A stretch of DNA of 64,000 nucleotides from Candidatus Lloydbacteria bacterium RIFCSPHIGHO2_02_FULL_50_18 (GCA_001821395.1 MHLM01000001.1:64001-128000), one strand, 5' to 3'. Positions 44,824 to 59,711 are shown, counted from the stretch's first letter. The notes: generated by a model not told the origin, from the letters alone. Numbers and translations: made by a program.

Positions 44824-44879
44824 ATATAGGCAGTATTATCGCATGATACCTCTACCTCGGCACGTTTGACCTGTTCCCG

Positions 44880-45050
44880 ATAATTTACATGAAATGAAAC
44901 GGACCGCCATCGCGTCATAAGCAACAGCATGAGCCGGTGAACTATTTCAGCAATTGCCTTTTCGGCAGAAAGACGACCGTCGGGTTGTTTTTCCGGAAAC
45001 AGATCCAATTTTCGCATAGATCGCATCGACATCTTTTTTATTCATTTTTA
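44880..45050 (-). pseudogene. Remnant of a PAS-protein paralog (start codon plus 10 codons joined out of frame to an internal fragment)
   Basis: Minus-strand 'MNKKDVDAIYAK' at ~45041 matches 'MNTNKKNVDAIYRE' of the 47350-47919 PAS protein. Downstream DNA 'aaagacgaccgtcgggttgtttttccgga' repeats the 47660-47700 segment (EKQPDGRLS). Reading frame broken by a large internal deletion. Confidence 0.45.
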
Positions 45051-45104
45051 TGTAGGCCTATTGATTTGATGGATGATGTGACACAAGGTCAATTATCCGC
45101 ACCA

Positions 45105-46925
45105 CTAAACGACAGGCAAACAAACAGTGATGGTCGTACCCTCAATGGGCCTGGACTCAACAGAAACAATTCCTCCATTTTTTTCTATGGCATCCTTTAT
45201 GAATACTTGATTTGCCGTTGCCGCGCCCTTCTCCTTATCACTCATACGGCCTGACGTGGGTATGGAGATTTTTAATAGGTCATCCTTCGAACTATCGAAT
45301 TCGGTACTGACAATGATTGTTTTAAGATATTTTTCAGTAGTTTCGTGCGAAATATGTATTGCCCCACCCTTTTTACCATGCTTGATCACATGATCCAGTA
45401 TGCCGAATATTGCATTTTCAATGACTGTCGGATTATCAACAAGGACGTTCAGAGATTCATCGGACGAGTCGTAATGCAAGCTGACCTCTTTTCGAAAAAG
45501 CAGTGGCATAAGAGCTATGTGTAACCGGTGTATCGTGGATATCATATCAAGCCCGATTTTTGATCGAATATTCATACGCTCAACCTCCTCGAGCAAATTA
45601 TCTATAATTTGAGTTATTTTCTGCGACTCATTTGCCAAAAGACTGATTCCTATCGACATGTCTGGGATAAGTTTTGTTATGCTCTCACGAGCATCGTTGA
45701 ACTGCTTAGCTACGGAATTAATGAGAGCCATTGGCACCTTCAGTTCCTGAACTTTATGCTGCAACACGATGAACATATCACCCAAACTGACTGTCATAGA
45801 ATTCATGCTTTCAGCAAGCTCGCTAAATTCGTCTCCCGTCTCTACCTCAATACGTTGAGAGAAATCGCCTGTTTTGATCGCTTCTGAGAGCGATTGAAAT
45901 TTCGACATTGGACTAATAAAAATGATGATTGTGCGATAAGCAAAAACAGAAACCAATAAAATACCTATCAGGAAAATAATAATACTCCTTACCACGATCG
46001 AGAGGACCGTATCCTCAACGCTCTGCATTCCTGTCTCTGTTACCAAGAAAAATGGGAGGTCTTCAAATTTAATCACCGAAATATTTTCGTTTTCTTTATC
46101 TTCCGCATCATAAATTTTTATCGTTACCATCTTCGTATAGGTATCGATGATTGTTTGCACCTCATTGTATTGTAACGGTACAACCTCCTTACCAAGCAAT
46201 TTACTCGTCTGTGTGATAAGTGCGATATTTTTAGACGAAAGTGTGCCAACACTTTTCAGAAAACGTTCGGATCGATTGGAAACTAAAATGATACCGAAAC
46301 TATCGGTAAGCATAACCGTACTTGTGTTTAACAGGTGACTGCGGAGGATCGAATCATCGATCTCGGTACTGTTTGTCTTGACCACCAAAACACCAACGAC
46401 ACTGCCGTCAGCGCTCTTTACTGGGTAAGAATAATAGTAGCCAAATTGATGGCTCGTGCTACCAATTGCAACATCAATATATGCATTACCACTCAATGCT
46501 TGTTTAAAATAATCCCGAAAACTATAGTCCTCTCCGATAAAACGCGCATCTGTTGAAACAAGGCCAATACCATGAGTATCCAAAAGGTAGATGGCCAAAT
46601 ATTTGACGTTTTCCTTTGTATATTCTGAAAAAATATCCAAAAGTACTTTTTTCTTCGCTTCGTCTGGGTGAATGGAAAAATCTCGCACTAAGGAGTTAGT
46701 CCCGAGCATTTTTGCAAATAGCTGATTAGTCTTTATCACCTGAGCAGTATGATGGACCTGCTCGGTCGCTATAACATTGATGTTGTTGATATTCCCCTCG
46801 ACAAGCGCAAAATTTACATAAAACGATATGACGAACGCCGTTAAAATACATAAAACAACAGATGATAAAACAAAAAGAATCGTTATTTTCGTTCGGACTG
46901 AAAAATTTCGGATATGAGATAGCAT
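45105..46925 (-). CDS. Membrane sensor, Cache-like extracellular domain + HAMP + degenerate histidine-kinase-like C-terminus (H-box His replaced by Gln)
   Basis: TM1 then ~280-aa periplasmic domain, TM2, then HAMP 'SPMSKFQSLSEAIKTGDFSQRIEV...DEFSELAESMNSMTVSL'. DHp-like 'VQELKVPMALINSVAKQF'. C-terminal 'GGIVSVESRPIEGTTITVCLP' ATPase-lid-like tail with weak G1/G2 boxes. Confidence 0.75.
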   Translation of the reverse strand: MLSHIRNFSVRTKITILFVLSSVVLCILTAFVISFYVNFALVEGNINNINVIATEQVHHTAQVIKTNQLFAKMLGTNSLVRDFSIHPDEAKKKVLLDIFSEYTKENVKYLAIYLLDTHGIGLVSTDARFIGEDYSFRDYFKQALSGNAYIDVAIGSTSHQFGYYYSYPVKSADGSVVGVLVVKTNSTEIDDSILRSHLLNTSTVMLTDSFGIILVSNRSERFLKSVGTLSSKNIALITQTSKLLGKEVVPLQYNEVQTIIDTYTKMVTIKIYDAEDKENENISVIKFEDLPFFLVTETGMQSVEDTVLSIVVRSIIIFLIGILLVSVFAYRTIIIFISPMSKFQSLSEAIKTGDFSQRIEVETGDEFSELAESMNSMTVSLGDMFIVLQHKVQELKVPMALINSVAKQFNDARESITKLIPDMSIGISLLANESQKITQIIDNLLEEVERMNIRSKIGLDMISTIHRLHIALMPLLFRKEVSLHYDSSDESLNVLVDNPTVIENAIFGILDHVIKHGKKGGAIHISHETTEKYLKTIIVSTEFDSSKDDLLKISIPTSGRMSDKEKGAATANQVFIKDAIEKNGGIVSVESRPIEGTTITVCLPVV

Positions 46926-47349
46926 AGAGATTTTTCTTAACCGGTAACTCGATCATTTGCCATCACCATGACACGGTGCACTCTCGGTCAATAATTTATT
47001 CCTAAAAAGACGGGTCCATTGCAAGAACATTGTTTGATACTCGCAGCAAGCGTTCTTTGTCCATTTTTATTAACAAGAGAATGCATTTTTCATCGTCGCG
47101 GGGCAAACACTTAACTCCATCAGTATACTATGTATTACAATAGGAAACCATATAATTTCTCACTGGAACATATCTTACCCGTATTGCTTCGGCGTTATCA
47201 TTGAGATCATTCTTGCGTCCCAAGATGACGCTCTTCGACAACGGTACACATGACGAAAGATTAGTGAAGTGCCTTTGTGAACCTTGCGAAAAGCAGAAAA
47301 AACGAAAAATATTCCACGACGACTAGGGCGGCAAGGATGGGGGCTTGTG

Positions 47350-47919
47350 CTATTTCTGCAATTTTCTCCGGATCTCTTCTATTTCGCTCCGTAGTTCGTT
47401 CTTTTCTATTTCATGCTTTTTCATCAACCGATTCATCTTTTCAACTTCCTCACTTTTCTCTTTTATGAGCAAGTGGTCTGCGATCTTCTCTTTTGTAACA
47501 TCTCTTACGGTGGCCTCAATGATCGACTGATCGCAAAGATCAATACGTGCAAGCAGTACTGTTGCAGGGAACTCTTCGCCATTCAGCCTGCGGTGTGTCC
47601 ATTCGAAAAAATGTGAGCCGTCATGCATCGCCGCGTTGATCATCTCCTTGGCCTTTTCGTGCGAAAGACGGCCGTCGGGTTGTTTTTCCGGAGAGAGATT
47701 CCAAGGTCCATTCGCAGTAAATTCTGTCTTATCTTTTGCTCCAAACATTTTTAATGCGGCGGCATTTCCATCGGTGAAACTCCATGCAGGAGGTTCAAGC
47801 GTCATAAGTGCGTCCGCAGAACTTTCAAAAAGCGCGCGGTAGCGCAATTCATCACCTTTTAAGACCTCTTCTAGCGTCTCACGATAGATTGCATCGACAT
47901 TTTTTTTATTAGTGTTCAT
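47350..47919 (-). CDS. Stand-alone PAS-domain protein with C-terminal coiled coil
   Basis: 'YRALFESSADALMTLEPPAWSFTDGNAAALKMFGAK...GRLSHEKAKEMINAAMHDGSHFFEWTHRRLNGEEFPATVLLARI' PAS fold pattern. Heptad-rich tail. Confidence 0.65.
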   Translation of the reverse strand: MNTNKKNVDAIYRETLEEVLKGDELRYRALFESSADALMTLEPPAWSFTDGNAAALKMFGAKDKTEFTANGPWNLSPEKQPDGRLSHEKAKEMINAAMHDGSHFFEWTHRRLNGEEFPATVLLARIDLCDQSIIEATVRDVTKEKIADHLLIKEKSEEVEKMNRLMKKHEIEKNELRSEIEEIRRKLQK

Positions 47920-47974
47920 GTGGGTTTATTAATTGATGAATAATGCATTTAAAATGACTGATCATGCCTCAAAC

Positions 47975-50023
47975 TCAAACGAATGGTAAGTACACCGACA
48001 CGGTCGTCCCTGCTCCCAATTCGGATTCAATAGTGATGATTCCACTGTTTTCTTCTATGTTATTCTTGATGGTCAGCAGACCTAATTGGGGCACTTTTGC
48101 GTATTCGACACTTATTGATTTCGGGGTAGGAGCATATATTTTTAACATATCCTCCTTAGAAATTCCGAGCCCGTTATCTCTAATGATCGTTTTGAAATAT
48201 TTTCCCGCAGCATCATGTTCAATAAATATATCTCCGCCGCGCTTACTGAATTTGATTGCGTTATCCAGCAGACCTGCAAATGATCGTTCGATCAATTCCG
48301 GATCATCGACCAGAACGTGAACGAAGGTTTCGGGCGGTTCATAGTGGATAGCCACCTCCGACAGAGAAGCAGAGGGGACCAGACGGGCCTGCAGACTCTT
48401 GAGCATCGTTACGAGGTCAAATATCATTTTATGTCTAATGTTCGCACCCTCGATCTCATCAAGGAGGCCGTCTACCATTTGCGTTATTTCTTGCGAAGCA
48501 TCAACAATAAGGCTGATCCCCATCGACATGTCCGGAATGAGCGCCGTGATCTTCTGTCGCGCATCATTGAATTGCTTAGCTACGGAATTGATGATGATAA
48601 GAGGGGGCTTCAATTCCTGAATGACACTTGCAATCAAGTCTGTTTTTCTCTTTTCTAACAATAATTCTTCTGTTGTGTTTCTTAAAGTTACGATGCATCC
48701 GGTCACGACATTATTGTCATTCTTTATCGGCGCGGCGCTGCTCACGACCGATACTTCATTTCCTCCTTTGTCGACGATCACAGTATGATCTTCCGAAGAT
48801 CTTTTTTCTCCACCAAGCATCGCCTCTTCAATGAACAATATGTTCGCTTTTTTATCACCCACTCTCACCAGTTTCACAATATCCTTAAAATTCTGACCCA
48901 TCGCCTCCTCGTCCGTGATATCGGTAAAATCTTCCATTACATTATTCCAAAGCGCTATCTTCCAATTTCTATCTATTACCAACATGCCGTCACTGATACT
49001 ATTAAGATAGACCTTCTCCCTACGGCGCAATTCGCTCGAGACGGAAAATATTTTCAAGACTAGCAGCGTAAGCAACAATAGAAATAATCCGACTATAATG
49101 TCCACAAAAGCCACGTGCGTCAAACTGGAATAATAGTCCGCAAAAGCAAACTGTGTCGGACGTTGAACGACAACGCCCCATTTGTACTCGGGAATTTGCC
49201 CGTACGCAGAAAGCGCCTCCTCGCCCCCCATTTCATCATAGGTAATCTCTACGAAGCTTTTGCCACTCAATACTTCTTTTACCGCACTGACCTGCGAATA
49301 ATTAACAAACCCATTATTGAGATCAAAATACGGATGCACGAGCAGGTTGCCATTCTTATCTATAAGATAGGTAAAACCGCCGGGTCCAACATCAACATTA
49401 CGGATCCACGCGGCAATTTTATCCAGTGAAGTTTGAACAAGAAGATATCCGACAACAACGTTCTTTTCGTCACGCACCGGCGCGGCGACGACAGTAACAT
49501 ACACTTCTGGGTGGATTCCCCTTTTGAACACCCCGCTAATTTCTAGCTTTCCCGTAACCGTAATATTTTTGTACCATTCACGATCAGCACGACTTTGTCC
49601 GATGATCGACGGATCGGCAGGATACACATCAATAAGTATGCCGGCTGGATCGAGCAGTGCAACGCCAACAACATCAGAATTACCCATGGCGATATTCCCT
49701 AACAAAAGACTGTTTTTATCCCATTTTGCCTCCTTTGTGTAGTTTACGATATTTGCCTTCGACGCATGCGTAATGACAAGATCCTCAAGAAGATCCAACC
49801 TTGGGGTTACAATGCTCTTCGTATGTTCAACAAGTGCAGCACTGCGCTCATACACGTCAGTTCTCAATACATTCCGATAGGTGACAAAATCATATCCGGT
49901 TGCCAAAATATATGGAACCATTACTGCGAGAATGATCAACAGCCTACTTCTCCAGGAGGTTGGTTCTACAAAGGAAACACTATTGGACACTCGTTTCAGA
50001 ACCTCTTTGACCATATTTAGCAA
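47975..50023 (-). CDS. Membrane sensor, Cache-like domain + PAS + histidine-kinase-like module with canonical HATPase_c but Gln at the H-box position
   Basis: TM-bounded ~270-aa extracellular domain. PAS 'ISDGMLVIDRNWKIALWNN...'. DHp 'SVIQELKPPLIIINSVAKQF'. ATPase N/G1/G2 'LLDNAIKFSKRGG', 'DNGLGI', 'GAGTTVSVYLP'. C-terminal ~180 aa paralogous to 45105-46925. Confidence 0.75.
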   Translation of the reverse strand: MLNMVKEVLKRVSNSVSFVEPTSWRSRLLIILAVMVPYILATGYDFVTYRNVLRTDVYERSAALVEHTKSIVTPRLDLLEDLVITHASKANIVNYTKEAKWDKNSLLLGNIAMGNSDVVGVALLDPAGILIDVYPADPSIIGQSRADREWYKNITVTGKLEISGVFKRGIHPEVYVTVVAAPVRDEKNVVVGYLLVQTSLDKIAAWIRNVDVGPGGFTYLIDKNGNLLVHPYFDLNNGFVNYSQVSAVKEVLSGKSFVEITYDEMGGEEALSAYGQIPEYKWGVVVQRPTQFAFADYYSSLTHVAFVDIIVGLFLLLLTLLVLKIFSVSSELRRREKVYLNSISDGMLVIDRNWKIALWNNVMEDFTDITDEEAMGQNFKDIVKLVRVGDKKANILFIEEAMLGGEKRSSEDHTVIVDKGGNEVSVVSSAAPIKNDNNVVTGCIVTLRNTTEELLLEKRKTDLIASVIQELKPPLIIINSVAKQFNDARQKITALIPDMSMGISLIVDASQEITQMVDGLLDEIEGANIRHKMIFDLVTMLKSLQARLVPSASLSEVAIHYEPPETFVHVLVDDPELIERSFAGLLDNAIKFSKRGGDIFIEHDAAGKYFKTIIRDNGLGISKEDMLKIYAPTPKSISVEYAKVPQLGLLTIKNNIEENSGIITIESELGAGTTVSVYLPFV

Positions 50024-50182
50024 AATTTTTTTGTTGTTCGTAAAAAATTCGAACGTAAGACCACGTCAGTATACTACAAATTATAGTAAGGGACCATGAA
50101 GTTACTCAATAGTAACACGTTCTGAGTACGTCCTTCCGTATTTTTTAGAACCTGCACTTCCATATCTCATTTGCAATCGCCC

Positions 50183-53100
50183 CTAATCCAGCTTTTTAGT
50201 CCCTCGTTTTGCGATCATTCCGGAAAGCGGGAACAAACAAGCAAATACCGTGTCCTCACCGACCTTTGATGTGAACCAGATCTTCCCGCCCGCATTTTCG
50301 ACGATCTGCTTCACAACATACAGCCCGAGCCCTGTACCATCCACGTCCTGTTTTTGGGCATTACTTGCCCGAAACATCTTCTGAAATATCTGTGACTGTT
50401 CACCTTCGGGGATCGGCTCTCCGTTGTTTGACACACTAAAGATGACGTTGCCGCCGTCAGCATGAAGCACTACCGTGATTCTCCCATTATCCTGGGTGTA
50501 CTTAACCGCATTCGAAATAAAATTCTGAAACACCACACGCAGCAGCTTCGCATCGGCAGGGATGATCGGTAATTGCGCGTCGAAGTGCGTGATCATCTGA
50601 TGACCTTTTTGTGCGATACGTCCCTCCATTTCCTTGAGTACCTCATTGCACACTGCGACGAAATCAGTCGGCGTCGGCTCAACGATGAAGACGCCCATCT
50701 CAATACGAGAAACATTGAGGAGTGCGTGGATCAATTCGTTGATACGCGTATTCAGAGAGTAAGTCTCACGCAATATCTCCTTCTGATTATCGGGCATTTC
50801 ACCGTAATCACCATCCAAGAGCATCTCAAGATTCCACTGTATCGCGCCGACTGGAGTCTTTAATTGGTGCGAAGCGAGTGAGACAAATTCGGTTTTTTCC
50901 CTATCGACGATCGATTCTTTCGTGATGTCCCAATTCACACCAACCATCTTGATTGCCTTTCCGTCACCGTCACGCTCGACGAGCGCATGGTCTTGAATAT
51001 AATGCGTTTCCCCACTTGGCCATATGATACGAAATTGCATATTGAACTCCTTTTCACCTCTTAGTGCCGCCTGGATAGCATCGTCTCTCAATTTTTTGTC
51101 ATCAGGGTGCAGTCTTTTTTGCCACGCCTCGAACGTTCTCTCGGACTCTTCTTTCGACATTGCGTACAGCGCGTACATTTGATCATTCCATGAGATCTTG
51201 TCTTTTGTGATATCCCATTCCCACACACCGATCTGTGCCGACTCGGTTGCAAGAGCCAGTCTCCGCGATACTTTTGCAAGATTCTCTTTTTCGCTTTCAA
51301 CGTCATCTAAAATATTAAGCACTGCTTTTTTGGTATTTTCCAGTTCGGCAATATTTGTCACGAGGTCACTGTTCGCATTTTCCGCATACGCGATCGCCTG
51401 TTTTTTTGACCGTGCAGTCACATATATCACACCAAAAAGCGCAAAGCTCATTAACAGGCCGACCACGACAATGAGGTAGCGCAACACGGCATAGGTACGG
51501 CCATTCGGAAGTAATGGCGCATTAGTAAATTCGATCGTCCATGGGTGATCAGCCACATACATCGTTACCGTAGTTCTGAACGTAAGATCCGACGCCCACC
51601 CCTCTACGCCCTCGCTCGCATCGAACATTAATCGTTCGGGAAGCATTCGCAGTCCGTCATAGATGCGGAATGTGATGTCCGCGCTTTTGAAAGCCTGACT
51701 TCCGCGTACAAGTTCGGCGGCATCGATCACGCTGAACACATAACCGAAGACGCTTTCTGGCTGCCGGGAAACACTGCCAGACGCAACATCGCCCCAATGT
51801 ACGGGGGCGTACGCGACGAAACCCGCCTTCATGCCTGCCCCCTCCTGTTGCATCAACATCACTCGGCCGGAGATAGAGGCCTCACCAGAGGCGCTTGCCG
51901 ACGCCATCGCACTGCGCCTCGTCTTCTCCGTAGACATATCAAAACCTATGGACCGACGATCCATTTCCGTAGGGGGCTCCACATAAAGAATGGGTGTATA
52001 TGCACTTCTCTCGCCTTCGGGTGTGATAACAAAATCAGGAAGCCCCTCTTTGCGCATAGAAGCAATGAATGCATCTTTTTCATCGGATGAAACGATCTGT
52101 GCAAATCCCAAACCCTGTATGCCGGGATAATTCTTGAACACTTTGATCGCCGTAAGATATGCACGCCATTCATCTCTGCTTACGGTTTGACTCGCAGCAA
52201 AGAGGCCTCCGGTTCCTCGGAGCGTATTGACGTAGATCTCCATCTGCTTTTGAATGTTAGCGCTGATCTCAGCGACCTCAGTAGCGAAATGAGACTGCTT
52301 TTCCTTCTCAGCATTTGCTTCAAATAAATAATACACGACAAACGTGATCGCGATGCTCACAATAAATATGATCAGAGCGATCCAATTTTCCCTCCAGAAA
52401 TTTTTGACCATTGTTACTTGTCGAATGTACATTAACATGAACAAAACGAGAAGAAGGAGCAAGAATGGGACTCCGAACTGAAAGAAAATGATCTTATTTC
52501 GCTCTTGTTCCGCCATTTGTACGTGCGCCCGGACACTTTCATCTGTATATGTATTTAAAAATTGGTTATATGGCAGCGATCTTTCACCGGTCTTTATGTC
52601 AAAATAAAAATAATCTATTGAAAAATCTTCCATTTTCACGACGTGACCAGAGATCGGTTCGATCCACATAAAAAGATCGCTTGAGAGCTTTACCCCGCGG
52701 GTCTCCGGTACCCCGGGAAGGAATCCCATGAGCTCCGTTTGGTCGGTCGGCTCAATATTGCTTTTTTGGTACTTGAATACTTTTAACCCGTACAAGGTCT
52801 CCTCACCTACGTACTTCATCTGTGAAGGAGTGTTGTTGCTTGCATGCCAGTACGTGAAAGAACTACCCCCCTTGAGCCATCTGGGCGCAAAAAGATACCC
52901 GTCCCTATCTCTATCTCCGGCACCCCTTACGTGTTGCCCGTTCAGCGCATTTATCCCATAGAGTGGCTCTGCGCGAAAGATGGTCTTTCCGTCCAGTGAT
53001 GCGACGTGAAATATATTTTTTATCGTGAAGATGAATCCCGCATACGAAACGACCTCATAAGAAAAATCCGTTTTGGAGTATTGTTCAGCACCAAATTCAC

Positions 53101-53290
53101 CAATGGATGCATCATAAAAATTATCAACAGACACCATGTCCGCCTTGTACGTAAAATCGCTCGGTATCATCAATAGATACGGGGCGACAAGAAAATACCA
53201 TAACGGGACAAATAGCAAGACTGCAAAAGAAAATATGTTCCTGCGCACATATTGAATAAAGGCTGTGATCGTATGTTTTATCTTATCCAT
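50183..53290 (-). CDS. Large multi-domain sensor histidine kinase: extracellular domain, CHASE domain, PAS, HisKA, HATPase_c (1035 aa)
   Basis: CHASE pattern 'RDEWRAYLTAIKVFKNYPGIQGLGFAQIV...ILYVEPPTEMDRRSIGFDMSTEKTRRSAMASASASGEASISGRVMLMQQ'. PAS_3 'WEWDITKDKISWNDQMYALY'. Canonical H-box 'LASHQLKTPVGAI'. 'GTGLGLYVVKQIVENAGGKIWFTSKVGEDTVF'. Confidence 0.8.
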   Translation of the reverse strand: MDKIKHTITAFIQYVRRNIFSFAVLLFVPLWYFLVAPYLLMIPSDFTYKADMVSVDNFYDASIGEFGAEQYSKTDFSYEVVSYAGFIFTIKNIFHVASLDGKTIFRAEPLYGINALNGQHVRGAGDRDRDGYLFAPRWLKGGSSFTYWHASNNTPSQMKYVGEETLYGLKVFKYQKSNIEPTDQTELMGFLPGVPETRGVKLSSDLFMWIEPISGHVVKMEDFSIDYFYFDIKTGERSLPYNQFLNTYTDESVRAHVQMAEQERNKIIFFQFGVPFLLLLLVLFMLMYIRQVTMVKNFWRENWIALIIFIVSIAITFVVYYLFEANAEKEKQSHFATEVAEISANIQKQMEIYVNTLRGTGGLFAASQTVSRDEWRAYLTAIKVFKNYPGIQGLGFAQIVSSDEKDAFIASMRKEGLPDFVITPEGERSAYTPILYVEPPTEMDRRSIGFDMSTEKTRRSAMASASASGEASISGRVMLMQQEGAGMKAGFVAYAPVHWGDVASGSVSRQPESVFGYVFSVIDAAELVRGSQAFKSADITFRIYDGLRMLPERLMFDASEGVEGWASDLTFRTTVTMYVADHPWTIEFTNAPLLPNGRTYAVLRYLIVVVGLLMSFALFGVIYVTARSKKQAIAYAENANSDLVTNIAELENTKKAVLNILDDVESEKENLAKVSRRLALATESAQIGVWEWDITKDKISWNDQMYALYAMSKEESERTFEAWQKRLHPDDKKLRDDAIQAALRGEKEFNMQFRIIWPSGETHYIQDHALVERDGDGKAIKMVGVNWDITKESIVDREKTEFVSLASHQLKTPVGAIQWNLEMLLDGDYGEMPDNQKEILRETYSLNTRINELIHALLNVSRIEMGVFIVEPTPTDFVAVCNEVLKEMEGRIAQKGHQMITHFDAQLPIIPADAKLLRVVFQNFISNAVKYTQDNGRITVVLHADGGNVIFSVSNNGEPIPEGEQSQIFQKMFRASNAQKQDVDGTGLGLYVVKQIVENAGGKIWFTSKVGEDTVFACLFPLSGMIAKRGTKKLD

Positions 53291-53473: not shown

Positions 53474-53872
53474 CTACCGTTCTTGCCATAAAGAAACGAC
53501 AAGCGGGTTAAGGGAGCCGGTAGTAATGTGAACATTACGGACGATATCACTCACGGAACCAACAACGGCGATCGCACGTGATGTTCCACCGGTATTGCTC
53601 ACCGTATATGTACAAGTGCTCTCGTTAAGCATTACGTTCCCCGTGCCGGTGTATGAATTATTTTCACGTAGTGTTTCTAGCGCAACCTCCGCACAAGCAT
53701 TCACAAGAGCCTTGGCGTGAACTCCATTTCTTGTGTTAATACTCCCCCTGATCGACCACATACTGCTTGTTGCGAGTGCAAGAGTGAGGGAAAGCGCAGT
53801 ACCGCCGAGAACGATGACGATGAAAAGCGTCGAGAATCCTTTTTGAACTTTTTTGTGGAAAAGATATTTCAT
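53474..53872 (-). CDS. Pseudopilin-like minor pilin (atypical, no Glu5)
   Basis: From internal Met: 'MKYLFHKKVQKGFSTLFIVIVLGG' is a prepilin-like leader then hydrophobic helix. Last gene of the pilus operon. Track ORF extends to 53947 overlapping the next gene. Confidence 0.5.
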   Translation of the reverse strand: MKYLFHKKVQKGFSTLFIVIVLGGTALSLTLALATSSMWSIRGSINTRNGVHAKALVNACAEVALETLRENNSYTGTGNVMLNESTCTYTVSNTGGTSRAIAVVGSVSDIVRNVHITTGSLNPLVVSLWQER

Positions 53873-53873
53873 A

Positions 53874-54386
53874 TCATTTACGTAATGCTCCGCTACCGTC
53901 AAAACGCACCACGTACGGAATGCCGGCACCGGCATTTGTCGTTGCACTCGTCAGTACAAAGCTGACTTGGACGATGTTAGGCGTACCCGGTTGAGAAAAG
54001 TTCGAGAAGATAAGATCGCTTATGATAACTTTGTTATTAGTGAGCTCAATCGGAGCACCGACACCTTCAGTGACATAGAGCACCCCGCCGCTTGCAGAGA
54101 ACGTCGTAGGACTCGTAGCGGGCGTTTCAGTGATCACACTCAGAAGTCCACCGAGCGCACCGACGGCGGGACTATTGACCTGACTGGCATTACGGAGCGT
54201 TTGCGTTATTGTTTTTATTGCACGCGAGCCCTGAGCGTTCACCTCAAACACGCTTTGACTGTGCAAACGCGCGGAGATGAGGCCAGCGGAAAAACTCATC
54301 AGCCCGATCACGAACACGCCGAATATCGCCACGTAGACGATCATTTCTATAAGTGAGAAGCCTTTTTGCATATCATATATTTTCAT
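53874..54386 (-). CDS. Type IV pilin/pseudopilin with canonical prepilin leader
   Basis: 'MKIYDMQKG|FSLIEMIVYVAIFGV' shows Gly-1, Phe+1, Glu+5. Confidence 0.7.
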   Translation of the reverse strand: MKIYDMQKGFSLIEMIVYVAIFGVFVIGLMSFSAGLISARLHSQSVFEVNAQGSRAIKTITQTLRNASQVNSPAVGALGGLLSVITETPATSPTTFSASGGVLYVTEGVGAPIELTNNKVIISDLIFSNFSQPGTPNIVQVSFVLTSATTNAGAGIPYVVRFDGSGALRK

Positions 54387-54387
54387 A

Positions 54388-56091
54388 TCATAAGGGCGTC
54401 AGACCGACACTAAAGACATGTTTCACCGTGGAGCCAGACGTCCCAATGCTATCGATAACCCCCGTTACTCCCGGTGCAACAATGAACCTGCGATAACTGG
54501 CCCTCGAGAAATCTGATGTGTTTGCACCGCGATCGTAATCTTCGGTCCACCCGCCCCCCTGCGTGAGCGGATTGGCAAACGTGCGCACGGTGGTAGTGTA
54601 CATGCTTGCAAAGACGAGCACTGTTGTGTTGGCGGTTGGAATCGTCATTGATGCGGCACGATAGGTCGTATTACTGACCACGTATTTCGTATTTGAAAAT
54701 ACAGAAATGGGATTTAAGACATCAAAGCAACCACGATATGCGGATAGCGTTACTGCGATCTTTGAGGCGGCGCTAAATCCAAATGTATAATTTGCCCCCT
54801 CAGCCGCTCCTGCGATCTTGTAATAGAGTGCCTGATTGTAGTTACCATTCCTGTGACGGCCGACAAGATTCCATCCAGCGGGTATCACCGACAATCTATC
54901 GATATTTGCGGCAGGATTATGAAGGATGTGAGCAAAAAGAATATCCCCCGCGGCGACTCCGGTTGGCTTCGTTACAACCGCTGAAGCAGATGACGCAGAA
55001 TCGTACACGGTTGGAATACCGACCGGTGCTGAGGCAACAACGCAAGTAGCTGCACCCGTCGTAAATGTTCCATCAGCTGAATAGCCCGTTCCCGTGGTGT
55101 TTATCGCATAGCCACGATAGTAGTACGTCGTTGCTGCAGTGAATCCCGTACGTGCCTGGGTAAATATGCCAAGCGTCGTTCCTCCTTCCGCGACACAATT
55201 TGTCGTAGGTGCGGGTGTTGTTCCCCAACATATTCCGCGCTCTCCGATCGAGGCCGGAATACCGAGTGACGTGACGTTTGCTCCAAGTGTCGCGGTCGTC
55301 TCGGTAATAAGGGCTGCGGTTGGAGTAGTAACCGTGGGGATCACATATTCTTCATACGTAATAGTGCATAATTTTGTGTCGCCATTGGCAAGCATAATGC
55401 TATTTCCAAGGCAATCAGCAGAAAGTGTCAGAGCGTAATTGGGGTCGATCGTTGTCAAAAAAGTGTACACACCGGGACCGAGCGTCATCGTGAACGGTGA
55501 ATAAACGATCGGAATATTCACGGTATTCTGCACGGGTGGTTCTACGGAATTATCCCACGCCAACGTCTGAAGACTATTGGGAAGGAAGTCGCCGAGGACT
55601 TTTGTACCACCATGATTCACTACCGTCTTGTTCACCGTGAGCCCAATATTGAGCGGTGCACGCCAATTCGTAAGATACGTATCCATGGCAACCGTGTGAA
55701 TTCCTAGAACCTGGTCTTCCCACGAAACGACCGTATGTATCCTCTTTTGATCGCTATTGACGGTCGAGAGCGTGACCGTTCGCGAGAAAATACCCTGCAC
55801 ATCGAATGAACCGGATAGGGCCCAAACATTAGCGAGATTGGCGAGACCATAAGTGCCGTCGGGCAAATTTACGAAATCATACTGCGCATCGCGCAGATTT
55901 CTTATTATCTCAAAAGATGCTTCGGCAAGAAAAGCGGCTCTCTCACTGTTCGCGACATGTCGCGCATTACGTGCAACGGTTGTTGTGGCACCTATTGTAG
56001 CAACAACAAAAACCATAAACACTGATAATGCGATCAGTATCTCGATCAAAGAAGATCCGCGACTATTAATATGTGATGGTACCTTTTGCAT
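54388..56091 (-). CDS. Large (567 aa) prepilin-domain protein, probable tip/adhesin minor pilin
   Basis: 'INSRG|SSLIEILIALSVFMVFVV' has Glu+5. Long Thr/Gly/Ala-rich C-terminal region with Cys pairs. Confidence 0.6.
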   Translation of the reverse strand: MQKVPSHINSRGSSLIEILIALSVFMVFVVATIGATTTVARNARHVANSERAAFLAEASFEIIRNLRDAQYDFVNLPDGTYGLANLANVWALSGSFDVQGIFSRTVTLSTVNSDQKRIHTVVSWEDQVLGIHTVAMDTYLTNWRAPLNIGLTVNKTVVNHGGTKVLGDFLPNSLQTLAWDNSVEPPVQNTVNIPIVYSPFTMTLGPGVYTFLTTIDPNYALTLSADCLGNSIMLANGDTKLCTITYEEYVIPTVTTPTAALITETTATLGANVTSLGIPASIGERGICWGTTPAPTTNCVAEGGTTLGIFTQARTGFTAATTYYYRGYAINTTGTGYSADGTFTTGAATCVVASAPVGIPTVYDSASSASAVVTKPTGVAAGDILFAHILHNPAANIDRLSVIPAGWNLVGRHRNGNYNQALYYKIAGAAEGANYTFGFSAASKIAVTLSAYRGCFDVLNPISVFSNTKYVVSNTTYRAASMTIPTANTTVLVFASMYTTTVRTFANPLTQGGGWTEDYDRGANTSDFSRASYRRFIVAPGVTGVIDSIGTSGSTVKHVFSVGLTPL

Positions 56092-56554
56092 TGATGATAA
56101 TATTCCTTACACCAAAACTATTCGTGAGCGTTACCGAACCTGCCCCACCCGTGTTTCCCGTAACTTTCTCGAAGACGATCTCGGAAAGCCCTCCTGCGAA
56201 TACGCCACTCGGCAGGTCGAGCTTCTGGTCTGCTGAGATATCTCTTAGGGCATAGACCCCACCCTTAAAGACGACCACGGAACTCGTAAGTAATGCTACC
56301 CCCCATGGTGAGTCGGCTTTCCCCGACTCCGCATTCGCCTGTGCGTGACGGAGCGCCCCGACGACTCCCATCGTCGCGATCTCGAGATTTTCATGAGCCT
56401 TGAAACTGCCGTAGACTGTTATGGAGACCGCAGTAAGCAACATTATAATGCCAACGACCACGATCAACTCGACGAGTGTGATCCCACGGTGTGATGATCC
56501 TTTAATTGATCTGACTTGATAGTCCATATAGTGGTCCCATGATAGCGAGCACAA
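56066..56554 (-). CDS. Type IV pilin (major-pilin-sized, ~150 aa)
   Basis: 'SSHRG|ITLVELIVVVGIIMLLTAV' has Glu+5. Overlaps downstream gene by 26 nt. Likely start at internal Met 56527. Confidence 0.65.
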   Translation of the reverse strand: MCSLSWDHYMDYQVRSIKGSSHRGITLVELIVVVGIIMLLTAVSITVYGSFKAHENLEIATMGVVGALRHAQANAESGKADSPWGVALLTSSVVVFKGGVYALRDISADQKLDLPSGVFAGGLSEIVFEKVTGNTGGAGSVTLTNSFGVRNIIINAKGTITY

Positions 56555-57638
56555 TAAAGCCGACGATCAGACCCACCACGATCAAAACGATCGGTTCTAA
56601 TATGGTGGCAAGATCACGCGACATTGCGTCTGTTTTTTCTTCAAAAATAATACCGATGCGGATGAATGTTTCCGACAACTTCCCGGACTTTTCGGCGGAG
56701 ATAATAAGCTGCTGTATCGGAATGGGAATGAATCGATCTATGTTCAGTAGACTGCCAAATGCTTCTCTGAACGATTCCCCGCGGAGCACGCTTGATTGCA
56801 GGTGCTCATAAAACCTTGCGTATGAGTCATATGATGTCCCTCTTTTGACCGAATCAAGCGCGTCAGCAACCGGGAATCCGGCTTGCAAAAGCACGCCGAA
56901 GATATACCCGAAACGCGCAACCTCGACCCCCTGCACGAGATCTTTTATCCCTGGTATGTGAAAAAGAATTACATCGCCGATGAATTTGGTTCTTTTATAA
57001 AAAAAACATGTATATACCAGAAGACCGATAGCGATGACGGATATAGGCACCGCAAAAGCACCATACTGCTCAAAGAAAGAGCCCATAGAGACCAATATTC
57101 TCGTCGCAAGAGGAAGCTCTCCCTTTGTTTCTGAAAAAATAGCGACAATCTTCGGTAGCACGAGCCACGCACTTCCCAGTGCGATGATAAGAGCGAGAAA
57201 AAAGACGATGCCCGGATACAACAATGCGGACCGGAGTCGTGAGTGGAACATCTTCTCTTTGTGCTGCTGAACGGTGACAAGATTCAAATGATCTGACAGC
57301 CTTCCCGCCTCCTCACCCGAACGAATGAGCGAGATGATGCGTTCTGAAAAAAGTTTTGTCTCCGAAAACGACCTCCAAAGCGGCATTCCCGAATTCACCA
57401 TCGACTCGATCGCAGCGGTAATCTTCTTCATCTTGCGTGTCTTGACCGAAAGACTGAGTGCTGCAAGGGCTGCGGATATCCCCATACCGGAAGAAATGAG
57501 CAGGCTCAAGTTTTCGATGAAATAGTCACGCTCATCACCGAAACCAACACTGAGGTACGGCCAGTCGGGGCGATATTCGAATGGGACTTCTTTAAAACCC
57601 TCATGTTCACGCGATTTTCGAAATTTTATTTGTTGCAT
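56502..57638 (-). CDS. pilC: Type IV pilus/T2SS platform protein (GspF/PilC family)
   Basis: Duplicated T2SSF domains, 3 TM segments, 378 aa. Between pilB and pilins. Confidence 0.8.
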   Translation of the reverse strand: MQQIKFRKSREHEGFKEVPFEYRPDWPYLSVGFGDERDYFIENLSLLISSGMGISAALAALSLSVKTRKMKKITAAIESMVNSGMPLWRSFSETKLFSERIISLIRSGEEAGRLSDHLNLVTVQQHKEKMFHSRLRSALLYPGIVFFLALIIALGSAWLVLPKIVAIFSETKGELPLATRILVSMGSFFEQYGAFAVPISVIAIGLLVYTCFFYKRTKFIGDVILFHIPGIKDLVQGVEVARFGYIFGVLLQAGFPVADALDSVKRGTSYDSYARFYEHLQSSVLRGESFREAFGSLLNIDRFIPIPIQQLIISAEKSGKLSETFIRIGIIFEEKTDAMSRDLATILEPIVLIVVGLIVGFIVLAIMGPLYGLSSQIN

Positions 57639-57647
57639 GGTCGTTTA

Positions 57648-59294
57648 TTAAGAACCGACAACACGAAGCACTTCTTCGATGGTTGTCATACCAGCTTTTA
57701 CTTTTTCGATGCCATCCTCAAACATGGAGACGAATCCCTGGCTCTTGATGAGCGCCATCACGTCTTTGGTCGACGGGCTCTTTGCAATAAGATTTTGTAG
57801 CTCAGGAGAGGTGCTTAAAAACTCAAATACTCCGATACGCCCCTTATACCCAGTATGCGAACAAACCTCACAGCCGTTTCCCTTATAAAGGGTCGCCCCA
57901 TCCTTAAAATGTCGGGCAACCTCCGAGCCAAACGACTCGAGCTCAGCGACCTTGTTTATGCGAAAACTTACCTTACACGAATCACAAATTTTGCGTACGA
58001 GCCTTTGACCAACGATCAACTCGAGCGTCGAGCCGACCAAAAATGGCTCAACGCCCATATCGATGAAACGTGGGATTGCTGTTGCCGCATTATTGGCGTG
58101 AAAGGTCGAAAGCATTAGATGCCCCGTCAACGCTGCGTTGACCGCGATATCAGCCGTTTCAAGATCGCGGATTTCTCCGACAAAGATGGTGTTCGGGTCT
58201 TGACGCATGATCGCGCGAAGTCCGTTTCCGAACGTCAGATTCGTCTGAGTATTGACCTGGATCTGATTTATTCCGTGGATCTTATATTCGACCGGATCTT
58301 CGATCGTCGTGATGTTCGTGCCCCTCGTATTGATGATCTTGATGATCGAGTAGAGCGTTGTTGTCTTACCGCTCCCCGTAGGACCAGTTACTAGGATCAT
58401 GCCGAACGGCTTCTTTGCGCTTTTAATGATCTGTTCCTGTAATGCGAGAGATAATCCAATGTCACTCAGACCGAGATCACGGACGGATGAAGAAAGAATG
58501 CGGATAGCGACCTTTTCCCCGTCGAGCGTAGGAACTATCGACACCCGGAGGTCGACCATCTCTGTGTGACTCGGAGATGCGTAGCGAATGACCCCGTCCT
58601 GTGCACTGAAATGCTCATCGATACGTAACTTGGACTGGACCTTCAAACGATTGACGATATTCTCATAGTATTCTTTCGGCATTTCGCCGACATCATGAAG
58701 TACGCCGTCTATCCTGAAGCGGATGACAACGCGATGCTCTTCGGGTTCACAATGAATATCGGACACCTTGAGCAGTAACGCCTCCTCAAATATCTGATTG
58801 ATGATCTCCGGAGCTGCACGCCCCTTGCTATCGATGATCTTCGCGAAGATCGCCCCTAATCCCAGATGGTAGTTCGCAAAGATAGCATCAATTTCATCAG
58901 GGATTGCGAGAGTGATCGTCAGTTTTTTATCGGGAAATAGCGGCTGCAGATTCGCCAAGAGTTCTTCCTGTGTGGGGTCATCAGTTGCGATGACTACGTC
59001 TGAACCTTTTTGTGAATAAACTACCGTACGATATTTTTTGGCAAGCTCCTCGGGAATAAGAAAAACCTGTTCTTTTCTGGGGCTGTGCGCTTCGAGATCG
59101 GAATAAGAAACCCCGAAAGACTCTGCGAATGCCTGACCGATGATTGCCCTCGAAAGCAAGCCCTGACCGAGCAAATAATCAACGAATGAACCGCGATGTT
59201 CTTTCGCGTATTCTTCCGCGATTGCAATATCTTTTTCTTCGATATAATTCCCGGCAAGAAGAACTTTTTTGATCGCTTCGTCATTAAAATTCAT
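57648..59294 (-). CDS. pilB: Type IV pilus assembly ATPase (GspE/PilB family)
   Basis: N-terminal T2SSE_N region. Walker A 'VTGPTGSGKTTTLYS'. Asp box/Walker B 'MRQDPNTIFVGEIRD'. His box. Tetracysteine 'CDSC...CEVCSHTGYKGR'. Confidence 0.85.
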   Translation of the reverse strand: MNFNDEAIKKVLLAGNYIEEKDIAIAEEYAKEHRGSFVDYLLGQGLLSRAIIGQAFAESFGVSYSDLEAHSPRKEQVFLIPEELAKKYRTVVYSQKGSDVVIATDDPTQEELLANLQPLFPDKKLTITLAIPDEIDAIFANYHLGLGAIFAKIIDSKGRAAPEIINQIFEEALLLKVSDIHCEPEEHRVVIRFRIDGVLHDVGEMPKEYYENIVNRLKVQSKLRIDEHFSAQDGVIRYASPSHTEMVDLRVSIVPTLDGEKVAIRILSSSVRDLGLSDIGLSLALQEQIIKSAKKPFGMILVTGPTGSGKTTTLYSIIKIINTRGTNITTIEDPVEYKIHGINQIQVNTQTNLTFGNGLRAIMRQDPNTIFVGEIRDLETADIAVNAALTGHLMLSTFHANNAATAIPRFIDMGVEPFLVGSTLELIVGQRLVRKICDSCKVSFRINKVAELESFGSEVARHFKDGATLYKGNGCEVCSHTGYKGRIGVFEFLSTSPELQNLIAKSPSTKDVMALIKSQGFVSMFEDGIEKVKAGMTTIEEVLRVVGS

Positions 59295-59306: not shown

Positions 59307-59711
59307 TTATTTTTTTTGAAATAATTGTTCGACCCTTCTAATAACCTCGGCGATCGGCGTATCGGATTTGGAAATAAAGTCTGTAGCCCCCAGTGAGCGC
59401 GCCTTCTTCTCGTCTTCTTCCTGACTAAGATTCGACAAAACGAGAATGGGTATCTTGTTGTTTTTTTTCTGTAATCGTTCAAGGACCTCAAAGCCGTTCA
59501 CGATAGGCATGATGAGGTCGCACACGAGAAGATCAAAATGAGAGCGTTCAATCAAGGAGAGCGCCTCTTCTCCGTTCGGCACACTCTCCGCATAAAAACC
59601 CGAATTTTGGAGTTTTAAAACAAGCGCACGTGAATACGCCCTTTCATCCTCAGCAATAAGAATCCTCTTCTTACTTTTCTCACTTGGCGGCATCAATAAA
59701 GTGTAACACAA
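59307..59711 (-). CDS. Stand-alone CheY-like response-regulator receiver (PilH-like)
   Basis: 'KRILIAEDE', phospho-acceptor 'LLVCDLIMP', 'VLSNL...K' Lys. No output domain. First gene of the pilus operon. Confidence 0.8.
   Translation of the reverse strand: MCYTLLMPPSEKSKKRILIAEDERAYSRALVLKLQNSGFYAESVPNGEEALSLIERSHFDLLVCDLIMPIVNGFEVLERLQKKNNKIPILVLSNLSQEEDEKKARSLGATDFISKSDTPIAEVIRRVEQLFQKK

What the first reader, a model, noticed from the sequence alone, without database searches (positions are those of the whole stretch)
45105..50023. Two paralogous kinase-like sensors carry Gln where the phospho-accepting His should be
In both 45105-46925 and 47975-50023 the DHp segment that aligns with the HisKA H-box (S-H-E-L-R-T-P-L) reads 'VQELKVPM' and 'IQELKPPL'. 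The catalytic His is replaced by Gln in both. The other two kinases in the window (3045, 50183) have the canonical 'SHQL[RK]TP'. The second paralog keeps a canonical ATPase domain, while the first has a degenerate one. Conservation of the Gln in both copies argues against sequencing error. These may be pseudo-kinases acting as phosphatases, scaffolds or ATP-dependent regulators rather than phosphodonors, next to a stand-alone PAS protein and a CheY-like receiver.
Basis: partly seen in the sequence, partly recalled or inferred. Interest (0 to 1): 0.6.

Follow-up and report, generated by a model that had tools for sequence, protein, structure and literature searches.

The report
Two histidine-less sensor pseudo-kinases (His→Gln)
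Two membrane sensor proteins in a groundwater Candidatus Lloydbacteria genome have the full fold of a bacterial histidine kinase, but a glutamine replaces the histidine that should take the phosphate, so they are most likely non-phosphorylating "pseudo-kinases", a kind of protein already known from DivL and PsmA.

Summary
ORF A (45105-46925, minus strand) and ORF B (47975-50023, minus strand) are transmembrane dCache sensors with a DHp helical hairpin and a CA (ATPase-like) domain. Gln393 (A) and Gln469 (B), both codon CAG, sit where the phospho-accepting His should be. B aligns without gaps to HK853 and SrrB. It also aligns end to end with a 684-aa dCache-PAS-HisKA kinase (P0132) that has His at that column. 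All 13 nearest relatives have His.

The canonical phosphatase residue at H+4 (Thr/Asn) is also gone: Pro in B, Val in A. B keeps the main N-box Asn and the G1 box, but has lost the F box and part of the G2 box. A has lost all nucleotide-binding boxes.

The genes are intact, identical across independent assemblies, and old duplicates under purifying selection. The DHp is their best-conserved part, yet it is unlike any canonical DHp.

A is a mosaic. Its sensor and HAMP are 71% identical to a third gene, C (59860-61320). Its DHp-CA comes from a B-like gene. The Gln is therefore one inherited event, not two.

The "adjacent CheY" is 9 kb away. No orthologues were found outside this population.

Verdict: new members of the known pseudo-histidine-kinase kind. 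Modest interest.

The parts
45105..46925 (-). ORF A (606 aa; GenBank OGZ05185.1): TM - dCache_1 - TM - HAMP - DHp with Gln393 - degenerate CA. It is a mosaic: residues 1-394 are C-like and residues 392-606 are B-like.
46248..46739 (-). A: extracytoplasmic dCache_1 domain (aa 63-226)
   Evidence: Pfam PF02743, 62.1 bits against a cut-off of 45
45783..45917 (-). A: HAMP domain (aa 337-381)
   Evidence: Pfam PF00672, 35.9 bits against a cut-off of 25
45573..45785 (-). A: DHp-like helical hairpin (aa about 381-451). No Pfam HisKA hit. 67% identical to B's DHp.
   Evidence: AF2 helices at fragment residues 16-51 and 56-86
45747..45749 (-). A: codon CAG for Gln393, at the phospho-acceptor position
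   Evidence: His390, three residues upstream, lies in the C-derived linker.
45108..45557 (-). A: CA-like domain with the N, G1, F and G2 boxes all lost (H512, S540/E542/D544, S554/T557, T570/N572/Q573)
   Evidence: HATPase_c 17.5 bits, below the cut-off of 26.4. Motif table. AF2 and Foldseek still give a histidine-kinase fold.
47975..50023 (-). ORF B (682 aa from TTG, or 679 aa from Met4 at 50014; GenBank OGZ05187.1): TM - dCache_1 - TM - PAS - DHp with Gln469 - partly degenerate CA
49166..49720 (-). B: dCache_1 domain (aa 102-286)
   Evidence: Pfam, 75.4 bits
48665..49006 (-). B: PAS domain (aa 340-453)
   Evidence: Pfam PAS_9 46.2 bits and PAS 39 bits
48443..48676 (-). B: DHp-like helical hairpin (aa about 450-527)
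   Evidence: AF2 helices at fragment residues 11-53 and 58-88. Ungapped alignment to the HK853 DHp.
48617..48619 (-). B: codon CAG for Gln469, at the phospho-acceptor position (equivalent to HK853 His260)
47978..48427 (-). B: CA domain. It keeps N588, K591 and the G1 box D616/G618/G620. It has lost the first N-box Asn (G584), the F box (Y630, T633) and the first G2 Gly (Q646).
   Evidence: HATPase_c 45.8 bits; AF2 pLDDT above 90 in the core with a disordered lid
47350..47919 (-). Stand-alone PAS protein with a C-terminal coiled coil, encoded between B and A
46926..47349 (.). 424-bp non-coding spacer upstream of A. It contains no receiver gene.
50183..53290 (-). Bona fide CHASE-PAS-HisKA-HATPase_c kinase directly upstream of B (H-box 'SHQLKTP'). 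Candidate partner kinase.
59860..61320 (-). ORF C (486 aa; GenBank OGZ05196.1): dCache_1 - HAMP - coiled coil, with no kinase module. 71% identical to A residues 1-394, so it is the paralogue of A's sensor half.
59307..59711 (-). The only receiver in the window: a stand-alone CheY-like domain. It lies after C and before PilB. Candidate docking partner.
   Evidence: Pfam Response_reg 82.8 bits; phmmer scan of all ORFs; sequence
53474..59294 (-). Type IV pilus gene block (PilB-like ATPase, PilC-like platform protein, pilin-like proteins). It lies on the same strand between the receiver and the CHASE kinase.

Best explanation
A and B are transmembrane pseudo-histidine kinases. Each keeps an extracytoplasmic dCache ligand-binding domain, a signal-transmitting module (HAMP in A, PAS in B), a DHp helical hairpin and a CA-fold domain. 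The phospho-acceptor His is Gln, the H+4 phosphatase residue is gone, and the ATP-binding boxes are partly (B) or wholly (A) lost. They therefore cannot run the His-to-Asp phosphotransfer.

The most likely mode of action is conformational. Ligand binding outside the cell changes the DHp/CA conformation. That change is read through protein-protein contacts made by the repurposed DHp surface. The favoured partner is a receiver domain, docked without being modified, as in DivL. The alternative partner is another DHp, either an A-B heterodimer or a true kinase. Either way these sensors would feed extra inputs into the small multi-sensor network encoded around the type IV pilus genes.

**Shown:** the Gln at the acceptor position, the loss of motifs, the fold, the purifying selection, and the mosaic origin of A.

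**Inferred:** the absence of autophosphorylation, the partner, and the output.

The confidence of 0.6 is for the whole statement. That A and B are not phosphorylated on a canonical H-box His is about 0.9. The specific receiver-docking output is about 0.4.
For: **Gln at the acceptor position.** Ungapped alignments to HK853/SrrB, to the full-length homologue P0132, and to 13 relatives that all carry His.

**Fold.** No Pfam HisKA hit. AF2 models (pLDDT 79.5 for B, 76.0 for A) have a helical hairpin plus an alpha/beta domain. Foldseek matches ZraS, HK853, WalK, DivL and RetS at E from 1e-15 to 1e-9.

**Motif loss.**. H+4 is Pro in B and Val in A.

**Not pseudogenes.**
- The ORFs are intact and identical on 14 contigs.
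- A versus B: pN 0.21 (DHp) and 0.39 (CA), against saturated pS of 0.68-0.73.

**The DHp is the conserved functional core.**
- It is 67% identical between A and B, against 39% for the CA and 24% for the one local sensor-domain match BLASTP reports (156 residues).
- It is only 16-22% identical to any canonical DHp. Canonical DHps share 30-38% with one another.
- The invariant run INSVAKQFNDAR covers H+9 to H+20. This overlaps the alpha-1 positions +8, +11 and +15, which were rewired to change HK853-RR468 specificity (titles of PDB entries 4jas/4jau). At those positions A reads L,S,Q and B reads I,S,Q. The neighbouring true kinases read A,W,M and A,G,L.

**Link to a receiver.** P0132/P0277, the closest full-length relative with His, sits immediately after a stand-alone receiver.

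**Precedents.** DivL has Tyr for His and senses DivK~P through its DHp-CA without kinase activity (PMC4211667). PsmA has the His replaced, by Gln in one species, lacks D/ExxT/N and shows no autokinase activity (PMC12963549).
Against: - No biochemical data exist.
- No orthologues are available, so neither conservation of Gln across species nor co-evolution with a partner can be assessed.
- The only receiver in the window is 9 kb away and is not adjacent to A or B.
- B retains the Mg-binding Asn and the G1 Asp/Gly residues, so some nucleotide-dependent activity is not excluded.
- Two alignment programs place A's His390 in the His column by opening a 3-residue insertion: phmmer against ZraS and MAFFT in A2.
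- The specificity-residue argument rests on positions defined in HK853, not in this family.
Confidence: 0.6

Rival explanations
1. Dedicated phosphatases. A and B no longer autophosphorylate but still dock a phosphorylated receiver and catalyse its dephosphorylation, as His-mutant HisKA kinases can.
For: Glu at H+1 and Pro at H+5 are retained. The DHp docking region is highly conserved between A and B. From general knowledge, phosphatase activity of HisKA kinases does not strictly need the His.
Against: The residue critical for HisKA phosphatase activity, Thr/Asn at H+4 of the E/DxxT/N motif, is Pro in B and Val in A, and it differs between the two. The same argument was used for PsmA (PMC12963549). 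The PDB entry 6azr, 'T264A HK853cp-BeF3-RR468', concerns this same position.
Confidence: 0.12
2. RetS-like inhibitors. A or B forms a DHp-DHp heterodimer with a true kinase, for example the adjacent CHASE kinase at 50183-53290, and blocks or tunes its autophosphorylation.
For: B lies 160 bp downstream of the CHASE kinase on the same strand. RetS blocks GacS through a heterodimeric DHp interface (PMC8498467). The RetS kinase region is among the Foldseek matches.
Against: The A and B DHps are only 16-19% identical to the DHps of both true kinases in the window, lower than unrelated canonical pairs at 30-38%. In RetS-GacS the heterodimer interface closely resembles the homodimer one. This is weak evidence, because interface compatibility cannot be computed here.
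Confidence: 0.15
3. Still kinases, using another acceptor. Options are His390 of A one helical turn upstream, possibly phosphorylated in trans by B's CA in an A-B heterodimer, or a Ser/Thr/Tyr substrate as in some histidine-kinase-fold protein kinases.
For: B keeps N588, K591 and the G1 box DNGLGI. A has His390, and the strain variant P0112 has His389-His390. Two alignments placed His390 in the His column. A and B share 67% DHp identity, so heterodimers are conceivable.
Against: His390 lies in the segment homologous to C, which has Asn there. B has no His in alpha-1, and the only DHp His of B (His531) is Ser in A. B has lost the F box and the first G2 Gly, and A has lost every box. The AF2 model of A shows one continuous helix with no 3-residue bulge. 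The alignment restricted to close relatives puts Gln393 in the His column, not His390.
Confidence: 0.08
4. Non-functional relics. They are decaying kinase genes that have not yet been disrupted.
For: No orthologues were found in any collection. Catalytic motifs are eroded. A's CA domain evolves about 1.8 times faster than B's relative to 13 outgroups.
Against: The ORFs of 606 and 682 aa are intact although synonymous sites between them are saturated. pN/pS is about 0.3-0.5 and dN/dS about 0.14-0.19. The sensor, HAMP and PAS domains all pass Pfam thresholds. The DHp is strongly conserved. CPR genomes are generally small (general knowledge).
Confidence: 0.05

Closest known systems
DivL of Caulobacter crescentus (pseudo-histidine kinase; PDB 4q20; PMC4211667)
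   Same: It has a histidine-kinase DHp-CA fold with the phospho-acceptor His replaced. It functions without kinase activity. Its DHp-CA is repurposed as a docking and sensing surface for a single-domain response regulator. PAS domains lie upstream. DivL appears among the sequence and fold matches of A and B.
   Different: DivL has Tyr rather than Gln and retains all of the H, N, G1, F and G2 boxes apart from the His (PMC4211667). It has no dCache sensor. It belongs to Alphaproteobacteria and is not an orthologue (B against DivL, E = 4.8e-6, generic similarity). The partner of A and B is unknown.
PsmA of Streptomyces (histidine pseudokinase; PMC12963549)
   Same: The H-box His is replaced, by Gln in the S. 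avermitilis orthologue. The D/ExxT/N phosphatase motif is lost. It is therefore inferred to be neither kinase nor phosphatase, and acts through protein-protein interaction.
   Different: PsmA is a cytoplasmic hybrid-kinase-like protein that binds DivIVA at hyphal tips. The residue at the His position varies among its orthologues. There is no homology to A or B beyond the shared fold.
RetS-GacS multikinase network of Pseudomonas aeruginosa (PMC8498467)
   Same: A sensor-kinase-fold protein regulates signalling through contacts of its kinase region rather than by its own autophosphorylation. Several sensors converge on one pathway.
   Different: RetS is a hybrid kinase-like protein that acts partly through dephosphorylating mechanisms. 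Its DHp interface with GacS mimics a homodimer. The A and B DHps are very unlike the neighbouring kinases' DHps.
dCache-PAS-HisKA-HATPase_c kinases from metagenomes (P0132/P0277, P0122; uncharacterised)
   Same: Same domain order and length as B (684 against 682 aa), 31% identity end to end. The PAS motif 'FIEEAML.G' and CA motifs such as 'LKT.I.D.G.GIS' are shared.
   Different: These relatives keep His ('HDLR[AS]P'), the N-box Asn, the F box and the G2 box 'GTGLGL'. They pass or approach Pfam HisKA. P0132 is encoded next to a stand-alone receiver.

Membership tests
Functional class I (HisKA-type) sensor histidine kinase | Phospho-accepting His in the H-box of DHp helix 1 | tested here: not met
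   Gln393 (A) and Gln469 (B) occupy the His column. Neither protein hits Pfam HisKA at E<=1.
Functional class I (HisKA-type) sensor histidine kinase | DHp helical hairpin followed by a Bergerat-fold CA domain | tested here: met
   AF2 models. Foldseek top hits are ZraS, HK853, WalK and CpxA, probability 1.00.
Functional class I (HisKA-type) sensor histidine kinase | Intact N, G1, F and G2 nucleotide-binding boxes, and HATPase_c above the Pfam threshold | tested here: not met
   A scores 17.5 bits (cut-off 26.4) and has lost all boxes. B scores 45.8 bits. It keeps N588/K591 and G1 but has lost the first N-box Asn, the F-box Phe residues and the first G2 Gly.
Functional class I (HisKA-type) sensor histidine kinase | ATP-dependent autophosphorylation and transfer to a receiver Asp | not testable with these tools
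   Requires biochemistry.
HisKA bifunctional kinase/phosphatase | E/D-x-x-T/N motif directly after the His position | tested here: not met
   B reads Q-E-L-K-P and A reads Q-E-L-K-V. Motif definition as cited in PMC12963549.
Pseudo-histidine kinase (functional class exemplified by DivL and PsmA) | Histidine-kinase fold that lacks the phosphorylatable His | tested here: met
Pseudo-histidine kinase (functional class exemplified by DivL and PsmA) | Maintained by selection, so not a decaying pseudogene | tested here: met
   pN 0.21-0.39 against saturated pS 0.68-0.73 between A and B. ORFs are intact and identical in 14 contigs. Only paralogue comparison was possible, because no orthologues exist.
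Pseudo-histidine kinase (functional class exemplified by DivL and PsmA) | No autokinase activity; acts by binding a response regulator, kinase or other partner | not testable with these tools
   Inferred only. Structure prediction of complexes was not available.
DivL orthologue group | Orthology to alphaproteobacterial DivL (Tyr at the His position, multi-PAS N-terminus, DivK/CckA partners) | tested here: not met
   Similarity to DivL is only generic (E = 4.8e-6 for B, 2.3e-3 for A). The architecture and taxon differ.
dCache-PAS-HK subfamily (P0132-like) | TM - dCache_1 - TM - PAS - DHp - CA architecture with end-to-end homology | tested here: met
   For B: 31% identity over 664 residues. A shares only the DHp-CA half, and its sensor and HAMP come from a C-like gene.

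The most novel reading that the evidence does not exclude
A and B form a ligand-gated pseudo-kinase pair, possibly an A-B heterodimer given the 67% identical but otherwise unique DHp. The pair would read the phosphorylation state of the stand-alone receiver, or scaffold it, and so couple two extracellular dCache inputs to the type IV pilus machinery of a CPR bacterium without any phosphotransfer of its own. That would be a DivL-style 'reversed' signalling module that arose independently in Patescibacteria. In this reading, domain shuffling exactly at the H-box (A = C-like sensor + B-like DHp-CA) is the way new inputs are plugged into the pseudo-kinase output.
Probability: 0.12. Interest if true: 0.6.

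Novelty: new member of a known kind. Interest (0 to 1): 0.3.

Why it matters
Automated annotation calls these proteins "histidine kinase" (UniRef) or "hypothetical protein" (GenBank). Anyone counting two-component systems in this streamlined CPR genome would therefore overcount kinases. Of the four kinase-fold genes in the window, only two can phosphorylate on the canonical His, and only one receiver is present. If the pseudo-kinases are functional, as selection suggests, a small-genome episymbiont-type lineage invests in non-catalytic signalling proteins placed next to its type IV pilus genes. The mosaic origin of A also shows that sensor modules can be swapped onto a pseudo-kinase core at the HAMP/DHp junction. 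The concept itself, a histidine-less pseudo-kinase, is already established by DivL, PsmA and others. The family is so far confined to one population, which limits its generality.

Tried and rejected
**1. Orthologue searches, to test whether Gln is conserved.**
- The word-indexed search of 5.8 billion proteins gave a best hit of 30% identity, all generic kinases.
- Exhaustive HMMER over 1.84 billion representatives found only A and B above 103 bits.
- Degenerate-pattern scans of genome contigs and metagenome contigs using the INSVAKQF, IPDMSxGI and FNDARxxI signatures returned only generic kinases.
- Cross-species conservation therefore could not be assessed.

**2. A CheY gene in the 424-bp gap 46926-47349.** There is no ORF, no tblastn remnant and no Rfam family.

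**3. His390 of A as the true acceptor.** Two alignments suggested it. I rejected it on homology to C (Asn390), its absence in B, the continuous helix in the AF2 model, and the close-relative alignment.

**4. Promoter and terminator scans of 44800-53600.** Counts did not exceed the shuffled controls, so the operon structure is not resolved.

**5. Genomic context of relatives.** P0114 and P0119 are orphan kinases with no adjacent receiver. Only P0132/P0277 sits next to a receiver, so the context evidence is thin.

**6. Complex or dimer structure prediction.** Not available. Only monomer models were made.

**7. Exact look-up of B from the TTG start.** It failed. The Met4 version is the one on record.

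Full report
**1. What is there**

The region holds two long minus-strand ORFs: A (45105-46925, 606 aa) and B (47975-50023, 682 aa, or 679 aa from Met4).

Pfam domains:
- A has dCache_1 (62 bits), HAMP (36 bits) and a sub-threshold HATPase_c (17.5 bits, cut-off 26.4).
- B has dCache_1 (75 bits), PAS (46 bits) and HATPase_c (45.8 bits).
- Neither hits HisKA at E<=1.
- The two other kinases in the window (3045-4670 and 50183-53290) hit HisKA (57 and 45 bits) and HATPase_c (95 and 92 bits). Their H-boxes read SHQLRTP and SHQLKTP.

Exact-sequence look-up identifies the source as Candidatus Lloydbacteria bacterium RIFCSPHIGHO2_01_FULL_49_22. By general knowledge this is a member of the CPR/Parcubacteria. 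A is OGZ05185.1 and B is OGZ05187.1, annotated as hypothetical protein or histidine kinase.

**2. Is Gln really at the phospho-acceptor position?**

For B the answer is unambiguous.
- phmmer against all PDB chains aligns B 450-680 to SrrB and HK853 (E about 1e-12). There are no gaps around 'asviQELKPPL' / 'aniSHELRTPL', so Gln469 corresponds to His260 of HK853.
- P0132 is a 684-aa dCache-PAS-HisKA-HATPase_c kinase. It aligns with B over 664 residues at 31% identity and has His opposite Gln469.

For A the evidence needs more care.
- A 392-606 aligns without gaps to B 468-682 at 47% identity, with Gln393 opposite Gln469.
- An alignment of A, B and 13 close relatives puts both Gln in a column that is His in all 13.
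- Two other alignments moved A's His390 into the His column by inserting three residues: phmmer against ZraS and MAFFT alignment A2.

I reject the His390 placement for four reasons:
- His390 lies in the part of A that is homologous to ORF C, which has Asn there.
- B has no His in that helix.
- The AF2 model of A has a continuous helix over residues 381-416.
- No other DHp His is shared by A and B.

Both Gln codons are CAG, one transversion away from a His codon.

Sequencing error is excluded. The 679-aa B protein sequence occurs on 14 contigs from several samples, and the fetched loci are 99.97-100% identical to the window.

**3. State of the other catalytic motifs**

| Motif | B | A |
|---|---|---|
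| H+1 Glu, H+5 Pro | kept | kept |
| H+4 (phosphatase Thr/Asn) | Pro473 | Val397 |
| First N-box Asn | Gly584 | Gly508 |
| Mg-binding N-box Asn | Asn588 kept | His512 |
| G1 box (DxGxG) | D616/G618/G620 kept | S540/E542/D544 |
| F-box Phe residues | Tyr630, Thr633 | Ser554, Thr557 |
| G2 box | Q-L-G-L-L in place of G-x-G-L-G-L | T-A-N-Q |

The losses shared by A and B (His, the first N-box Asn, the F box) indicate that their common ancestor was already a pseudo-kinase. A's CA domain has since evolved faster. Against outgroup P0114 it has 24 unique changes to B's 7. Summed over 13 outgroups the counts are 266 and 148.

Both AF2 models keep the histidine-kinase fold (pLDDT 79.5 and 76.0), and the ATP-lid segment is disordered. 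Foldseek's best PDB matches are ZraS, HK853, WalK, CpxA, DivL and RetS.

**4. Evolutionary anatomy**

A is a mosaic.
- Residues 1-394 (TM, dCache, TM, HAMP and linker) are 71% identical to ORF C (59860-61320). C is a dCache-HAMP protein that ends in a coiled coil and has no kinase module.
- Residues 392-606 descend from a B-like DHp-CA.
- The junction is at 'KV|QE', exactly at the former H-box.
- The two Gln therefore reflect a single ancestral substitution, not two independent ones.

Synonymous sites are saturated in both comparisons (pS 0.68-0.73), while non-synonymous divergence is much lower:

| Comparison | pN |
|---|---|
| A/B DHp | 0.21 |
| A/B CA | 0.39 |
| A/C sensor | 0.16 |

These are old duplicates kept under purifying selection (nominal dN/dS 0.10-0.19), not fresh pseudogenes.

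The DHp is the most conserved part of A and B, at 67% identity with an invariant run INSVAKQFNDAR. It is nevertheless only 16-22% identical to any canonical DHp, including both true kinases in the window. Canonical DHps share 30-38% with one another. This pattern, strongly derived and then conserved, is what a repurposed interaction surface would look like.

**5. Distribution**

No orthologues were found.
- The word-indexed search gave only generic kinases at 30% identity or less.
- Exhaustive HMMER over 1.84 billion representatives gave only A (as strain variant P0112, which reads 'LHHKVQELK') and B above 103 bits.
- Pattern scans of genome and metagenome contigs found nothing closer.

One unrelated protein in the hit list, P0196, also has Gln in an otherwise perfect H-box ('STSQELRTPL'). 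It is a Pseudomonadota 7TMR-DISM protein with two kinase modules. His-to-Gln substitutions therefore arise sporadically elsewhere.

**6. Context**

All of the following genes lie on the minus strand, listed in order of transcription:

1. C, dCache-HAMP-coiled coil (61320-59860)
2. Stand-alone receiver (59711-59307)
3. PilB-like ATPase, PilC-like platform protein and pilin-like genes (59294-53474)
4. CHASE-PAS kinase (53290-50183)
5. B
6. PAS-coiled-coil protein (47919-47350)
7. 424-bp spacer
8. A

The receiver is the only one in the 64-kb window. By reading its sequence against the canonical receiver positions, it has the acidic pocket, the phospho-Asp, Ser and Lys. It is not adjacent to A or B, and the spacer holds no receiver remnant.

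The closest full-length relative with His, P0132/P0277, is encoded directly after a stand-alone receiver and a HisKA_7TM kinase. Two other relatives are orphan kinases.

**7. Mechanism**

The best explanation is that A and B are ligand-sensing pseudo-histidine kinases that signal by conformation-dependent protein-protein contacts through the DHp.

- Receiver docking, as in DivL, is favoured. The conserved block covers the alpha-1 positions that set receiver specificity in HK853: +8, +11 and +15 relative to the His, taken from the titles of entries 4jas/4jau. A and B carry nearly the same residues there (L/I, S, Q), and these are unlike the residues in the neighbouring kinases.
- A phosphatase role is disfavoured by the lost H+4 residue.
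- RetS-like heterodimerisation with the neighbouring kinases is disfavoured, weakly, by the very low DHp similarity.
- An alternative acceptor is disfavoured by the absence of any shared His and the eroded ATP site.
- Decay is disfavoured by the selection signal.

All functional steps are inferred. None is demonstrated.

**8. Comparison with what is known, and novelty**

Pseudo-histidine kinases are an established kind.
- DivL has Tyr for His. It senses DivK~P through its DHp-CA and needs no kinase activity (PMC4211667).
- PsmA has the His replaced by Glu, Asp, Gln, Val or Tyr depending on the species. It lacks D/ExxT/N and shows no autokinase activity (PMC12963549).
- A laboratory-evolved ChrS pseudokinase is also described (PMC9491836).
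- RetS acts on GacS through its kinase region (PMC8498467).

A and B are not orthologues of any of these. They are new members of the class, with three distinctive features:
- They occur as a pair of transmembrane dCache sensors in a CPR genome.
- They share a unique DHp.
- One of them was built by domain shuffling at the H-box.

Interest is modest. The family is confined to one population, and no mechanism can be tested computationally.

Noticed in passing
window 59860-61320 (-): ORF C has dCache_1 and HAMP, followed by about 100 aa of coiled coil with three 'V..RT.EL'-type repeats and a terminal 'MNKFMIGRELKMTELKKEI' motif. It has no output domain. It is 71% identical to the N-terminal 394 residues of A. 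It sits directly upstream of the only receiver and the type IV pilus genes.
   Followed up: partly
window 47350-47919 (-): The stand-alone PAS protein between B and A ends in a coiled coil ('EKMNRLMKKHEIEKNELRSEIEEI'). This resembles the C-terminal tail of ORF C (34% identity over 38 aa). The evidence is weak because both are coiled-coil sequence.
   Followed up: partly
window 46926-47349: A 424-bp spacer upstream of A has no ORF of 40 aa or more on the coding strand, no Rfam family, no receiver remnant and no repeat elsewhere in the window. It is unusually long for this tightly packed gene cluster.
   Followed up: partly
window 50183-53290 (-): The bona fide CHASE-PAS kinase has a non-standard G1 box, 'SNNGEPIP', instead of DxGxG, yet its HATPase_c score is high (91.6 bits). 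Both true kinases in the window have Gln at H+1 (H-Q-L-[RK]-T-P) rather than the usual Glu/Asp.
   Followed up: no
P0196 (metagenomic protein, Pseudomonadota; not in the window): This 1229-aa protein has a 7TMR-DISM domain, two kinase modules, a receiver and a PAS domain. Its first H-box reads 'STSQELRTPL', an independent His-to-Gln substitution in an otherwise canonical H-box.
   Followed up: partly
L013 1059-3524; L014 624-5229: P0132/P0277 is the closest full-length relative of B that keeps His. It is encoded immediately after a 132-aa stand-alone receiver and a HisKA_7TM kinase. The window also carries a HisKA_7TM kinase (3045-4670), but with no receiver next to it.
   Followed up: partly
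window 53474-59294 (-): A type IV pilus block (PilB-like ATPase 57648-59294, PilC-like 56502-57638, and four proteins with or near an N-terminal methylation motif) is flanked on both sides by sensor proteins. It may be one long co-oriented signalling and pilus cluster.
   Followed up: no
window 39643-40371 (-) and 17882-17953 (-): A small stand-alone GGDEF protein (242 aa) lies a few kb downstream of the cluster. The only RNA gene found in the window is a single tRNA-Pro (GGG).
   Followed up: no
P0112 (strain variant of A, SRR3989344): A read-derived variant of A differs at about 7 residues, including Gln389 to His, which gives 'LHHKVQELK'. The Gln at the acceptor position is unchanged.
   Followed up: no
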